From the NCBI GenBank assembly GCA_934149305.1, contig CAKPEF010000001.1, positions 36,748-100,747 on the forward strand: 64,000 nucleotides of DNA, in the 5' to 3' direction. The notes under the pieces were generated by a model that was not told the DNA's origin, made no database searches, and worked only from the letters and a program-made list of their open reading frames with translations. Each line of letters begins with the position of its first letter. Position 1 is the first letter of the stretch. Positions 58,129-60,236 of this stretch are shown in pieces. A program made the translations under genes and the position numbers. Origin of the DNA: an uncultured Clostridia bacterium. GTDB lineage: Bacteria; Bacillota; Clostridia; TANB77; UBA1234.

Positions 58129-58635
58129 CTAATTCTTTCTTATCGAAATAAGTGATACACATCCATATTTATCATATGAAATTATTTCTACATTATATTT
58201 CTTTCGTGTTTGTAGGTAATATTTCACATCTTTATATTCCACATATGCATCTCCACCATAACTCTTAAGAGAATCATCTATATTTAATACTATCTCATAT
58301 TGATCTGGAAACTTATTCTCATTATAAGTTTTTACTATCCATACTAATTTTTTAATATCAAAACTACTCACTTCTCCCTCAAATTCTTTCACTTTATCAT
58401 TAACTTCATCAATCTGTTTTGACATTTGCTGTTTCCAGTTATATGGCAACATACCACTTATAGCCGAATTATAATAGTATGTAAATGCAACACCACAAAT
58501 TGCTATTATCAACGCCACAAGAATCACTATAATCATCTTTTTATGGTCACAGACTAATCTTAGAAATTTATTTTTTCTTTCGTTTTTTGTATCATAATCC
58601 GGTTTTTCGTTTTTTTCTACCTTTTCTATCTTCAT
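58129..58635 (-). CDS. Paralog 1: small single-pass membrane protein (conserved cytoplasmic N-terminus plus TM, divergent ~110-aa exported domain)
   Basis: MKIEKVEKNEKPDYDTKNERKNKFLRLVCDHKKMIIVILVALIIAICG; a GGGGGG RBS tract; the GTGAACACAACC motif upstream. Confidence 0.55.
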   Translation of the reverse strand: MKIEKVEKNEKPDYDTKNERKNKFLRLVCDHKKMIIVILVALIIAICGVAFTYYYNSAISGMLPYNWKQQMSKQIDEVNDKVKEFEGEVSSFDIKKLVWIVKTYNENKFPDQYEIVLNIDDSLKSYGGDAYVEYKDVKYYLQTRKKYNVEIISYDKYGCVSLISIRKN

Positions 58636-58687
58636 TTGTATTTTCCCCCTTTTCGGTTGGTTGTGTTCACTAATTGTAATATTTCTT

Positions 58688-59050
58688 ACTTTATTTTAGT
58701 GTAGCACTATCTATTATTTTTTATGGAGCACACTGTGCTCCGCTACATTTTTGCAGTTATTTTACTTATTTTTATAAATTAGTTTATACTGCCTTATGAT
58801 ATTTTTTCAACTTTATTTTAGTGTACCGATAGCAATTACTTTTTATGGAGCACACTGTGCTCCGCTACATGCTTGCAGTTGTTTTATATATTTTTATAAA
58901 TTGTTTTACACTACCTTATAATATTTTTTAACTTTATTTTAGTGCACCGATAGCAATTACTTTTTATGGAGCACACTGTGCTCCGCTACATTTTTGCAGT
59001 TGTTTTACTTATTTTTATAAATTAGTTTATACTGCATAGTAATTTTTTAT
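58688..59050 (+). repeat. Tandem array of three ~120-bp units (family palindrome plus a promoter-like segment)
   Basis: Units begin CTTTATTTTAGTG... and contain TATGGAGCACACTGTGCTCCGCTACATTTTTGCAG; about 85-95% identical to each other. Confidence 0.7.
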
Positions 59051-59111
59051 GAGACTCTCTAAGCTTAAGTCACCTTATTTTTTTCTATTCATTTTTCTTA
59101 GATTTTATATA

Positions 59112-59594
59112 CTAATTTTCTGTTATTGAAATGGATGAAATCTTGCCTGAATCATATGACATAGTTACTTTATATGTTTTAGAATTTAATATAGTATATT
59201 TTTCTCCTTCGTAATATGTTTTACCTTCATCACTCTTAAGCGAATCATCTATGTTTAATATTATAAATACATTATATTCTTTATAAAGCTTTACACGCCT
59301 AATCAAGGTCTTGACATCAACACCGCTCACTTCTCCCTCATATTGTTTCAAAACATCCGTAAATTCATCAATATGTTCTAAGAACTGTTGTTCCCAGTTG
59401 TATGGTGATGAACCACCTATAGTTGGCGTATAACAATATATAACAAGTGCACCACAAATTGCTATTATCAACGCAACAAGAATCACTATAATCATCTTTT
59501 TGTGGTCACAGACTAATCTTAGAAATTTATTTTTTCTTTCGTTTTTTGTATCGTAATCTGGTTCTTCGTTTTTTTCTACCTTTTCTATCTTCAT
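59112..59594 (-). CDS. Paralog 2 of the small membrane protein (first 48 aa identical apart from one E/K substitution; C-terminal domain divergent)
   Basis: MKIEKVEKNEEPDYDTKNERKNKFLRLVCDHKKMIIVILVALIIAICG...; the same upstream motif and a C-tract RBS (GGGGG). Confidence 0.55.
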   Translation of the reverse strand: MKIEKVEKNEEPDYDTKNERKNKFLRLVCDHKKMIIVILVALIIAICGALVIYCYTPTIGGSSPYNWEQQFLEHIDEFTDVLKQYEGEVSGVDVKTLIRRVKLYKEYNVFIILNIDDSLKSDEGKTYYEGEKYTILNSKTYKVTMSYDSGKISSISITEN

Positions 59595-59647
59595 TTGTAT
59601 TTTCCCCCTCTTCGGTTGGTTGTGTTCACTAATTGTAGTATTTCTTA

Positions 59648-60130
59648 CCTTATTTTAGTGTACCGTCAGCAATTACTTTTTATGGAGCACACTGTGCTCC
59701 GCTACATTTTTGCAGTTGTTTTACTTATTTTTATAAATTAGTTTATACTGCCTTATGATATTTTTTCAACTTTATTTTAGTGTACCGCTAGCAATTACTT
59801 TTTATGGAGCACACTGTGCTCCGCTACATTTTTGCAGTTGTTTTATATATTTTATAAATTGTTTTACACTGCCTTACAATATTTTTTTAACTTTATTTTA
59901 GTGCACCGATAGCAATTACTTTTTATGGAGCACGCCTAAGCTTAAGCTACATGCTTGCAGTTGTTTTATATATTTTTATAAATTTTTTATACTGCCTTAT
60001 AATATTTTTTCATCTTTATTTTAGTGTAGCACTATCTATTATTTTTTATGGAGCACGCCTAAGCTTAAGCTACACTTTTTGCAACTGTTTTATATTTTTT
60101 CATAAGTTAATTTATAATGTTAATTTTATT
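59648..60130 (+). repeat. Second tandem array of four ~120-bp units (two with variant A palindrome, two with variant B AAGCTTAAGC)
   Basis: Same unit as 58688-59050; the last two units carry GGAGCACGCCTAAGCTTAAGCTACA. Confidence 0.7.
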
Positions 60131-60190
60131 TTACAAATTATATCTTCATTTGTCAAATAGGACATGATTATACATACAATATATAAAAAT

Positions 60191-60227
60191 GATAAAAAGG
60201 CGCACATGAAATTCTCATGTACGCCCT
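60191..60227 (-). terminator. Intrinsic terminator of rpoC
   Basis: Minus strand GGGCGTACATGA-GAATT-TCATGTGCGCC followed by TTTTTATCATTTTT. Confidence 0.7.
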
Positions 60228-60236
60228 TTATATTTT

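What the first reader, a model, noticed from the sequence alone, without database searches (positions are those of the whole stretch)
58129..60236. Two paralogous membrane-protein genes interleaved with tandem ~120-bp repeat arrays directly downstream of rpoC
Downstream of rpoC one expects the rpsL-rpsG-fusA region in Firmicutes. Here the rpoC terminator is followed by 4 + 3 tandem units, each containing the family palindrome and a promoter-like TTGAAA-16-TATAAA on the gene-sense strand. The units alternate with two paralogs whose first 48 aa are identical apart from one E/K substitution (cytoplasmic tail plus TM), while their ~110-aa exported domains are fully divergent. The RBS regions contain a poly-C/G tract of different length in the two copies (CCCCCC versus CCCCCTC). 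The layout suggests a recombination or cassette-style diversification or phase-variable surface-protein locus, or serial duplication and decay of a gene with its promoter. It is not a CRISPR array.
Basis: seen in the sequence. Interest (0 to 1): 0.65.

Follow-up and report, generated by a model that had tools for sequence, protein, structure and literature searches.

The report
Repeat-padded, strain-variable membrane-protein gene pair
Behind rpoC in an uncultured gut Clostridia bacterium lie two related small membrane-protein genes, each preceded by tandem copies of a miniature transposon-like repeat that is scattered through the genome; repeat number and the proteins' outer domains differ between strains, most likely through ordinary recombination, not a dedicated switch.

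Summary
The layout is real: rpoC, terminator, 4 units of about 122 bp, gene B, 3 units, gene A, then uvrA. An independent metagenome assembly has the same layout.

Three details are wrong.
- The outer domains are about 46% identical, not fully divergent.
- The RBS tract is G5 in all 15 copies examined, so there is no length difference.
- TTGAAA-16-TATAAA occurs at only 2 of 7 unit junctions.

The units belong to a dispersed, modular, BOX-like MITE family found in this window and in related Clostridia MAGs. It has terminal inverted repeats, 8-bp target duplications and a palindromic core, and it always points the same way as the gene it precedes. A unit is the left repeat plus body, amplified in tandem.

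The block of array plus gene (959 bp) was then duplicated. Arrays and the first 48 codons are about 97% identical (dS 0.17); the rest is old (dS about 1, dN/dS 0.34).

Other metagenomes show 1 to 4 units and three outer-domain types (A, B, C) in either slot, between 97-100% identical flanks.

The proteins are distant relatives of a large unnamed family that sits in operons with a type IV filament-like ATPase.

The best reading is a recombination-prone variable gene cluster, not a programmed phase or cassette system. It is a new member of known kinds and of moderate interest.

The parts
60237..63788 (-). rpoC (1183 aa), the upstream neighbour
   Evidence: ORF; RNA_pol_Rpb1 domains on the identical gene in L001 and L005
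60195..60229 (-). rpoC intrinsic terminator (16-bp stem followed by a T run)
60128..60156 (-). Best sigma-70-like promoter of the locus, TTGACA-17-TAAAAT (11 of 12). Its -35 region resembles the 5' end of the genes (ACAAATGAAGATA).
   Evidence: family D11; conserved in L091 and L092
59636..60128 (-). Array 2: four units of 121-123 bp (60004-60120, 59881-60001, 59760-59878, 59638-59757). The two rpoC-proximal units carry core variant 2 (TAAGCTTAAGC); the two gene-proximal units carry core variant 1 (hairpin GGAGCAC-ACT-GTGCTCC).
59595..59637 (-). Leader of gene B: right terminal repeat AATTAGTGAACACAACC (59618-59634), then AACCGAAGAGGGGG (RBS G5) and the ATG
59112..59594 (-). Gene B, 160 aa: cytoplasmic tail (1-31), transmembrane helix, outer domain of type B
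59043..59111 (-). Decayed remnant of a fourth unit (CTTAAGCTTAGAGAGTCTCATAAAAAATTACT) directly after the gene B stop codon
   Evidence: alignment of the two blocks; conserved in L002, L008, L084, L091 and L092
58677..59042 (-). Array 1: three units (58924-59040, 58801-58920, 58679-58798), all with core variant 1. They are positional counterparts of the last three units of array 2 (81-94% identical to them).
58636..58676 (-). Leader of gene A: right terminal repeat AATTAGTGAACACAACC (58659-58675), RBS G5 and the ATG
58129..58635 (-). Gene A, 168 aa, paralog of B with outer domain of type A
58036..58098 (-). Long hairpin (GCACTTGATA...TATCAAGTGC) followed by a T run: the likely terminator of the B-A transcription unit
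13080..13173 (-). Single short copy of the same (type-1) element: GGTAGTGTAAAC...GTGAACACAACC, flanked by a perfect 8-bp duplication TAAAATAC, 18 nt upstream of the RBS of a membrane-protein gene
9420..9555 (-). Type-2 MITE (terminal repeats GTTACTATTCAG, 136 bp) carrying the same core, flanked by a perfect 8-bp duplication ATATTTTA
52151..52284 (-). Type-2 MITE (134 bp) carrying core variant 1, flanked by a perfect 8-bp duplication AACTACTC
23148..23414 (.). Cluster of three cores in a divergent intergenic region, each pointing towards the gene it precedes
36698..36841 (-). Two cores 72 bp apart; the gene-proximal one ends 18 nt before the start codon of the downstream gene

Best explanation
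This is a strain-variable tandem cluster of small single-pass membrane-protein genes whose leaders are built from a BOX-like composite MITE.

Shown:
- One element sits between a promoter and the RBS. It has terminal repeats GGTAGTGTAAAC...GTGAACACAACC and a palindromic core.
- The same element is dispersed upstream of many unrelated genes in this genome and in related gut Clostridia MAGs. Some copies carry 8-bp target duplications.
- Its left repeat plus body (about 122 bp) has been amplified in tandem, and the block of array plus gene (959 bp) has been duplicated.
- The arrays and the first 145 nt of the genes are about 97% identical. The outer-domain parts are old and constrained.
- In other metagenomes the unit number (1 to 4) and the outer-domain type (A, B or C) in each slot differ, while the flanks are nearly identical.

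Inferred:
- Homologous recombination between the repeated leaders and conserved 5' coding parts (gene conversion and unequal crossing-over) homogenises the 5' ends, changes unit number and moves outer-domain types between slots.
- Transcription starts at TTGACA-17-TAAAAT behind the rpoC terminator. It runs through array 2, gene B, array 1 and gene A to the hairpin at 58036-58098.
- The units are tolerated there because in this orientation the core hairpin is followed by A's. In the opposite orientation it resembles an intrinsic terminator. That would explain why every copy points the same way as its downstream gene.
- The proteins are exposed, pilin-related envelope proteins whose outer domains are kept diverse by selection.
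For: - Units and layout. The same layout occurs in L005.
- Dispersed family: 16 strand-matches to the palindrome (8 sites) against 0 expected, further copies in the window, and full-length copies in other MAGs, L012, L019, L042 and L063.
- Terminal repeats match at 14 of 17 positions. The right end always lies 8-15 nt before an RBS.
- Target duplications: perfect 8 bp in 6 of 7 type-2 copies. Type 1 has one perfect duplication at 13080-13173 and a 6-of-8 match in L024.
- Orientation: among genuine family hits in MAG loci, about 22 have a downstream gene start only in the element's sense, 4 only in antisense and 4 in both. All window copies are co-oriented with their gene. The antisense strand scores as terminator-like.
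- Block alignment: about 97% identity through codon 48, then about 65%. dS is 0.17 against 0.99, and dN/dS is 0.34 for the rest.
- Units are 81-94% identical between arrays at matching positions, but 82-87% identical to their neighbours within an array.
- Strain variation:
  - L083 has a type C gene next to uvrA; flanks are 97-100% identical and the outer domain 30-82%.
  - L091 reads rpoC, promoter, one unit, type C gene.
  - L092 reads three units, B', one unit, C', uvrA.
  - L002 and L008 have a one-unit spacer.
  - C-type copies are mosaic: 98% identical in the 3' part and 76% next to the membrane.
- Protein family.
Against: - All comparison data are short-read metagenome assemblies. Some single-unit contigs have low coverage (L002, 1.5x), and L008 closes on itself, so individual cases could be assembly collapses. 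Units that differ by 13-18% make collapse unlikely, however.
- There are no expression data. The promoter and the operon structure are consensus-based only.
- The arrays themselves show no target duplication, and most type-1 copies have decayed duplications.
- Why internal units keep the left terminal repeat but lack the right one is unexplained.
- No parent transposase was found.
- The pilin-like assignment rests on remote homology (20-28% identity) and on the genomic context of relatives. It has no support from a fold match.
Confidence: 0.65

Rival explanations
1. The units are functional regulatory modules, not passive repeats. Each would add a promoter, a protein-binding palindrome or an RNA-stabilising 5' hairpin, so that unit number tunes expression of the two genes.
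For: - Copies sit at a tight distance from the RBS and in strict co-orientation with the downstream gene.
- Blocks are conserved across species.
- The core stem is conserved while its loop varies (AGT, ATT, ATC, GAAA, TTAA).
- Weak promoter-like sites occur at two junctions.
- About 12 of 19 downstream genes encode membrane or exported proteins.
- Homologous upstream regions in front of unrelated genes fit the 'putative mobile promoter' concept (PMC3488235).
Against: - No covariation was found and the consensus fold is weak (-5.2 kcal/mol).
- Folding z-scores are similar on both strands (-1.5 to -2.8).
- There is no Rfam match.
- Core variant 2 lacks the hairpin yet occupies the same position.
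- The only strong promoter lies outside the units.
- Target duplications argue for insertion, not an ancestral regulatory region.
- Orientation bias can be explained by avoiding a terminator-like orientation.
Confidence: 0.15
2. This is a programmed antigenic or phase-variation system for a pilin-like surface protein. The repeat arrays and the conserved 5' module would serve as dedicated recombination substrates that exchange outer-domain cassettes at high frequency within a clone, as in pilE/pilS.
For: - The gene architecture has a conserved N-terminal part and a variable C-terminal part with a sharp boundary at codon 48.
- The same C-type outer domain occurs in either slot, and alleles are mosaic.
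- The proteins have a remote relationship to proteins from type IV filament-like operons.
Against: - Both copies are complete, with a leader, RBS and start codon.
- No silent cassettes were found in 64 kb.
- No invertase or recombinase gene and no flanking inverted repeats are present.
- The homopolymer is invariant.
- Units within an array are 13-18% diverged and dS of the 5' part is 0.17, so exchanges are rare on an evolutionary scale.
- Identical alleles recur in many samples (12 contigs with A, 8 with B).
- dN/dS is 0.34, with no overall positive selection.
Confidence: 0.08
3. The arrays are an assembly artefact: mis-assembled or artificially expanded repeats.
For: The window appears to be metagenome-derived. 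L001 has a run of N inside the array.
Against: - L005 from another sample reproduces both arrays at 99.99% identity over 14.9 kb.
- L006, L007 and L009 match sub-stretches at 100%.
- Units are individually distinct (64-94% pairwise identity), so they can be assembled from 150-nt reads.
Confidence: 0.02

Closest known systems
BOX elements of Streptococcus pneumoniae and S. suis (boxA-(boxB)n-boxC composite MITE-like repeats; PMC3049150)
   Same: - Both are modular intergenic repeats with terminal inverted repeats and an internal module in tandem arrays.
- Copy number differs between strains, and larger arrays vary more.
- Both lie close to genes and are predicted to form stem-loops.
- In S. suis, two families with different terminal modules surround the same internal module. 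Here, two MITE types share one core.
   Different: - There is no sequence similarity.
- The amplified module here is about 122 bp and includes the left terminal repeat; boxB is a roughly 45-bp internal module.
- Co-orientation with the downstream gene is strict here.
- The host is an uncultured gut Clostridia lineage.
Correia elements and other bacterial MITEs (background given in PMC3049150; otherwise my own knowledge)
   Same: They are short and non-coding, with terminal inverted repeats, target-site duplications and many dispersed copies next to genes. They can be co-transcribed with neighbouring genes.
   Different: - The target duplication is 8 bp here (TA for Correia elements).
- No promoter activity or RNase III processing has been shown here.
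- Tandem amplification is not typical of Correia elements.
IS6-family insertion sequences (IS26, IS257, IS1216) as a possible mobilising family
   Same: - Both give an 8-bp target duplication.
- The terminal repeats begin GGTT-TGTT. GGTTGTGTTCACTAATT matches the published IS6-family repeat GGTTCTGTTGCAAAGTT (PMC2920175) at 11 of 17 positions.
   Different: - No transposase gene was found between such repeats in the DNA held.
- The resemblance is short.
- This is a lead only, not a test of membership.
Putative mobile promoters (Matus-Garcia et al. 2012, PMC3488235)
   Same: Highly similar 50-100-nt upstream regions stand in front of non-homologous genes, both within and between genomes.
   Different: Promoter activity of the element is untested. 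In this locus the best promoter lies outside the element.
Variable tandem surface-protein gene families and pilE/pilS-type pilin variation (my own knowledge)
   Same: The 5' or N-terminal part is conserved and the C-terminal exposed domain is variable. Repeats flank the genes, and alleles are reshuffled between strains.
   Different: - No silent cassettes are present, and both genes are complete.
- There is no sign of high-frequency switching.
- The proteins lack a canonical prepilin motif.

Membership tests
MITE (miniature inverted-repeat transposable element) | Short, non-coding, many dispersed copies | tested here: met
   Elements are 93-167 bp and have no conserved ORF. There are at least 9 sites in the 64-kb window besides the arrays, and copies occur in more than 10 related MAGs.
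MITE (miniature inverted-repeat transposable element) | Terminal inverted repeats | tested here: met
   Type 1: GGTAGTGTAAACTAATT against the reverse complement of AATTAGTGAACACAACC matches at 14 of 17 positions. Type 2: GTTACTATTCAG at both ends. Internal array units lack the right repeat.
MITE (miniature inverted-repeat transposable element) | Target-site duplication | tested here: inconclusive
   Type 2 (same core, other terminal repeats) has a perfect 8-bp duplication in 6 of 7 copies. For type 1, the family of the array units, one copy is perfect (13080-13173), one matches at 6 of 8, and the others at 2-4 of 8. The arrays themselves have none.
MITE (miniature inverted-repeat transposable element) | Cognate transposase or parent IS with the same terminal repeats | tested here: not met
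   No pair of terminal repeats encloses a transposase in the DNA held. The complete genome was not available.
BOX-like composite repeat | Terminal modules flanking a variable number of tandem internal modules, with number varying between strains | tested here: met
   Units number 1, 3 or 4 upstream of the first gene and 1 or 3 between the genes, depending on the assembly. There is one right repeat per array.
CRISPR array | Short direct repeats separated by unique spacers of similar length | tested here: not met
   Units abut one another without spacers, and the whole 122 bp repeats.
Slipped-strand phase variation | Homopolymer or short repeat tract whose length differs between copies or strains and changes expression or reading frame | tested here: not met
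   The tract is G5 in all 15 leaders from 13 assemblies.
Cassette-type antigenic variation (pilE/pilS, vls-like) | One expression site plus promoterless partial cassettes | tested here: not met
   Both genes have a leader, RBS and ATG. tblastn finds no other copies in the window. The rest of the genome could not be searched.
Invertible-promoter or shufflon switch | Site-specific recombinase gene and inverted repeats flanking the switched segment | tested here: not met
   The neighbours are rpoC and uvrA. The arrays are direct repeats, not inverted ones.
Type IV pilin-like proteins | Class III signal peptide (small residue at -1, usually Glu at +5) and an N-terminal hydrophobic helix | tested here: not met
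   A and B have a 31-aa charged tail followed by KKM-IIVILVALIIAICG, with no G/A at -1 and no Glu at +5. The distant relatives begin MENASKALIIAGAIL.
Type IV pilin-like proteins | Encoded with a secretion ATPase, platform protein and several pilin paralogs | tested here: not met
   This holds for distant relatives: the L085 and L088 operons have a T2SSE ATPase (27.3 bits against a cut-off of 24.9) plus 5-6 small paralogs. It does not hold for A and B, which lie between rpoC and uvrA.
Type IV pilin-like proteins | Pilin fold (long N-terminal helix packed on a beta-sheet) | tested here: inconclusive
   The AF2 model (pLDDT 77, outer domain 85-95) shows a transmembrane helix, a poorly predicted linker, then a domain of two helices and a beta-sheet. 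No significant match was found in the PDB or BFVD.
Known structured RNA (Rfam) | Match to a covariance model at the gathering score | tested here: not met
   No family matches the region. The best hit has E = 0.24 and lies on the terminator.

The most novel reading that the evidence does not exclude
The MITE-derived leader arrays and the conserved 5' gene module have been domesticated as recombination substrates. Together they would form a pilin-like antigenic-variation locus in a gut Clostridia lineage, exchanging outer-domain cassettes (types A, B, C and possibly others elsewhere in the genome) between expression slots. Alternatively, the shared dimorphic core found inside two unrelated MITE families could be the site of an unknown sequence-specific DNA transaction.
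Probability: 0.1. Interest if true: 0.7.

Novelty: new member of a known kind. Interest (0 to 1): 0.38.

Why it matters
The finding explains an odd-looking locus in terms of known processes. A BOX-like MITE family was amplified in a gene leader, the block was duplicated, and recombination between the copies then followed.

Three results may be useful to others:
- It documents a previously undescribed repeat family: two MITE types that share one dimorphic core. The family could confuse assembly, binning and annotation of these uncultured gut Clostridia, and could serve as a strain-typing marker.
- It flags a within-species hypervariable surface-protein locus.
- It links two orphan proteins to a large unnamed family (at least 632 clusters) encoded in type IV filament-like operons of Clostridia. 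That family deserves a name and a solved structure.

None of this changes current concepts.

Tried and rejected
- **Rfam.** Scans at gathering and permissive thresholds found nothing on the units.
- **Phage and plasmid collections.** blastn of the spacer array found no match.
- **Literature.** A full-text search for the core and terminal-repeat sequences found nothing.
- **Genome scan.** The pattern TTATGGAGCAC-N10-12-GCTACA was too loose.
- **RNA structure.** RNAalifold on 7 cross-species copies gave a weak fold with no compensatory changes. Single-sequence folds were no better on the gene strand than on the opposite strand.
- **Promoter in each unit.** Only two weak hits were found.
- **Poly-C/G phase variation.** Rejected.
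- **Silent cassettes in the window.** None found.
- **Parent IS.** None found. One candidate pair of terminal repeats in L049 turned out to bracket a ToxN toxin gene followed by 36-nt repeats.
- **Protein family assignment.** Pfam, NCBIfam, PHROGs and PDB sequence searches gave no significant family for A, B or their relatives.
- **Structure.** The first AF2 run with 5 sequences was poor (pLDDT 48). Fold searches with the better model gave only long-helix noise. afdb50 was not available.
- **Organism name.** The cluster look-up gave no name.
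Full report
**1. What is there**

The minus strand carries rpoC (60237-63788), followed by a strong intrinsic terminator (60229-60195). A near-consensus sigma-70-type promoter follows: TTGACA-17-TAAAAT at 60156-60128, matching 11 of 12 positions.

After that come, in order:
- four tandem units of 121-123 bp (59636-60128);
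- gene B (59112-59594, 160 aa);
- a decayed unit remnant;
- three units (58677-59042);
- gene A (58129-58635, 168 aa);
- a long hairpin with a T run (58036-58098);
- uvrA.

An independent metagenome assembly (L005) is 99.99% identical over 14.9 kb, including both arrays. Several short contigs match sub-stretches at 100%. The arrays are therefore not an artefact of this one assembly.

**2.

Correct:
- the 4 + 3 units;
- the palindrome family (16 strand-matches at 8 sites against 0 expected);
- the identical first 48 residues apart from one E/K change.

Not correct:
- The outer domains are not fully divergent. A and B are 61% identical overall and about 46% identical after residue 48.
- The 'poly-C tract of different length' does not exist. 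Both leaders read G5 in gene sense, the RBS, and differ only by an A/G two bases upstream. G5 is invariant in 15 leaders from 13 assemblies.
- TTGAAA-16-TATAAA is present at only two unit junctions. The only strong promoter lies upstream of the whole array.

**3. What the units are**

The units belong to a dispersed repeat family. A profile built from the seven units finds partial or full copies at 9464, 11192, 13092, 23148-23414, 36705-36841, 45205 and 52195 in the window. Full-length copies occur in MAGs of other uncultured Clostridia from human, goat, sheep and deer guts: L012, L019, L042 and L063, among others.

Read in the sense of the downstream gene, the element has this order:
- a left terminal repeat, GGTAGTGTAAACTAATT;
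- an A-rich stretch ending in TGCAAAAATGTAGC;
- a core;
- CCATAAAAA;
- an optional module, GTAATTGCTAGCAGTACACTAAAATAAAGT;
- a right terminal repeat, AATTAGTGAACACAACC.

An RBS and start codon follow the right repeat after 8-15 nt. The two ends are inverted repeats matching at 14 of 17 positions.

The core comes in two forms. Variant 1 is the hairpin GGAGCAC-NNN-GTGCTCC. Variant 2 is TTAAGCTTAGGTGTGCTCC. Intermediates between them exist.

A second element type (132-140 bp, terminal repeats GTTACTATTCAG) carries the same core in the same two variants. It is flanked by perfect 8-bp target duplications in 6 of 7 copies, including 9420-9555 (ATATTTTA) and 52151-52284 (AACTACTC). For type 1, the copy at 13080-13173 has a perfect 8-bp duplication (TAAAATAC) and L024 has a 6-of-8 match. 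Older copies have lost theirs.

These are MITE features. The 8-bp duplication and the GGTT-TGTT start of the terminal repeat resemble IS6-family ends (published repeat seen). No parent transposase was found, so that remains a lead.

**4. Orientation of the copies**

Every core in the window points the same way as the gene it precedes. Among genuine family hits in the MAG loci, about 22 have a downstream gene start only in the element's sense, 4 only in antisense and 4 in both. The distance to the start codon is often 18-85 nt.

On the opposite strand the core plus GCTACATTTTT scores as an intrinsic terminator. The simplest reading is that insertions in the terminator-like orientation upstream of genes are removed by selection. 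A regulatory role cannot be excluded, but the tests do not support one:
- no Rfam match;
- a weak consensus fold without compensatory changes;
- similar folding z-scores on both strands.

**5. How the arrays arose**

Internal units begin with the left terminal repeat and end just before the position of the right one. Only the gene-proximal unit carries AATTAGTGAACACAACC. The arrays are therefore tandem amplifications of 'left repeat plus body' within a single element, not serial insertions.

Units at matching positions in the two arrays are 81-94% identical. Neighbours within an array are only 82-87% identical. The multi-unit array therefore existed before the block of array plus gene (period 959 bp) was duplicated or last homogenised.

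The block alignment shows about 97% identity from the second unit through codon 48, then an abrupt drop to about 65%. Synonymous divergence is 0.17 for codons 1-48 and 0.99 for the rest, with dN/dS 0.34 for the rest. The 5' parts have been homogenised by gene conversion or share a younger origin. The outer-domain parts are old and under moderate purifying selection.

The closest known parallel is the pneumococcal and S. suis BOX element (PMC3049150). BOX elements have terminal modules, tandem internal modules whose number varies between strains, and in S. suis one internal module shared by families with different ends.

**6. Variation between strains**

The protein family in the strict sense has only five 90%-identity clusters among 5.8 billion. 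They fall into three outer-domain types: A (P0001), B (P0002, P0003 and P0181) and C (P0004 and P0005).

The contigs that carry them show different arrangements:
- **L083:** a C-type gene lies next to uvrA. Flanks are 97-100% identical to the window, but the outer-domain region is only 30-82% identical.
- **L091:** rpoC 3' end, terminator, promoter, one unit, C-type gene. The intergenic distance is 274 bp against 642 bp in the window, a difference of three units.
- **L092** (15 kb, 5.5x coverage): three units, B', one unit, C', uvrA.
- **L002, L008 and L093:** a one-unit spacer of 233 bp, against 476 bp in the window.

C-type copies from different slots are 98% identical in their last 260 nt but only 76% identical next to the membrane, so the alleles are mosaic.

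These are short-read assemblies, and individual cases could be collapses. However, five contigs from two assemblers agree, and the units differ too much for easy collapse. The locus is therefore polymorphic in unit number and gene content. That is what recombination between long direct repeats predicts.

Nothing points to a programmed switch:
- no silent cassettes in the window;
- no recombinase gene nearby;
- no variable homopolymer;
- identical alleles recur in many samples.

**7. The proteins**

A and B have a 31-residue charged tail, one transmembrane helix and an outer domain of about 110 residues. No Pfam, NCBIfam or PHROG family matches them.

A profile search links them, at 20-28% identity, to a large unnamed family of 130-150-residue proteins. 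Most of these begin MENASKALIIAGAIL and share the motifs YEGxxxGxxVKxLI and YxVxxxYDxxGxIxxIxI (at least 632 clusters).

Members of that family lie in conserved operons upstream of spoIVB. The operons encode a T2SSE-type ATPase (above Pfam's cut-off), a ParA-like protein, and five or six small paralogs with the same N-terminus. This suggests a type IV filament-like machine with several pilin-like subunits.

With a 65-sequence alignment, AlphaFold gives a confident outer domain (pLDDT 85-95) of two helices and a beta-sheet. No significant structural neighbour was found. A and B lack a canonical prepilin motif and are not in such an operon. 'Pilin-related exposed envelope protein' is therefore an inference.

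**8. Verdict**

The 'phase-variable or cassette' reading is only loosely supported.

The best explanation, at about 0.65, has three parts: a BOX-like MITE was amplified in the leader of a small envelope-protein gene, the block was duplicated in tandem, and recombination between the copies then followed. Together these produce a strain-variable cluster.

Three things remain unexplained:
- why the amplified module includes one terminal repeat;
- why two unrelated MITE families share one dimorphic core;
- whether the promoter region at 60124-60153, which resembles the genes' 5' end (family D11), is the relic of a third gene copy.

This is a new member of known kinds and of moderate interest.

Noticed in passing
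window 57853-58077 and 55164-57779 (-), frameshift near 57876: uvrA is split by a one-base insertion inside the Walker A codons: GGT TCA C GG AAA ATC instead of G-S-G-K-S. This leaves a short N-terminal ORF (called as 43 aa, or 74 aa from an upstream start) and an 871-aa ORF that starts at MEKPDV. The same extra base is present in L001 and L083 (sequences read); L005 and L092 show the same split gene calls, so it is not a one-off sequencing error.
   Followed up: partly
window 9420-9555 and 52151-52284; L014, L027, L031: A second MITE family (132-140 bp, terminal repeats GTTACTATTCAG, perfect 8-bp target duplications) carries the same roughly 33-nt core, in the same two variants, as the array units.
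   Followed up: partly
L049 3756-4861: In a related MAG, two type-2 MITE copies bracket a ToxN toxin gene (Pfam ToxN_toxin, E = 5e-48). Nearly three 36-nt tandem repeats lie at about 4514-4600 and look like a ToxI-type RNA antitoxin. This may be a MITE-flanked type III toxin-antitoxin module.
   Followed up: partly
L085 627-11874; L088 549-11196: A conserved operon in other Clostridia lies upstream of spoIVB. It encodes a ParA-like protein, a 650-660-aa T2SSE-type ATPase, a large unannotated protein (692 aa in L085, 433 aa in L088), and five or six small proteins starting MENASKAL.., MENAADAL.. or MSDTLITVIAI. It appears to be an undescribed type IV filament-like system whose subunits have no Pfam family.
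   Followed up: partly
window 60124-60153: The -35 region of the promoter behind rpoC (TTGACAAATGAAGATATAATTTG) is 80% identical over 30 nt to the 5' end of genes A and B (ACAAATGAAGATAGAAAAGG). It may be the relic of a decayed third gene copy.
   Followed up: no
window 14362-14470 and 45193-45262: Two type-1-like elements have both terminal repeats but lack the palindromic core. They lie directly upstream of genes for a secreted protein and a lipoprotein. This shows that the core is an optional module.
   Followed up: no
window 47660-47880 versus L012 536-754: A 221-bp stretch upstream of the gene at 46736-47731 is 95% identical to a non-syntenic locus of another MAG (CAUGFN01). It may belong to another dispersed repeat family.
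   Followed up: no
window 24883-25083 (-) and 43940-44024 (-): A 6S RNA gene (85.9 bits) and a tRNA gene are the only Rfam matches in the window at gathering score.
   Followed up: no
P0007, P0008, P0011: The N-terminal tail module of A and B (MKIKKVENKEKPEYDTK.EKQNKFLKLIFEHKK plus a transmembrane helix) also occurs in other metagenome proteins, fused to unrelated or truncated C-terminal parts. The tail plus transmembrane helix may be a reusable module.
   Followed up: no
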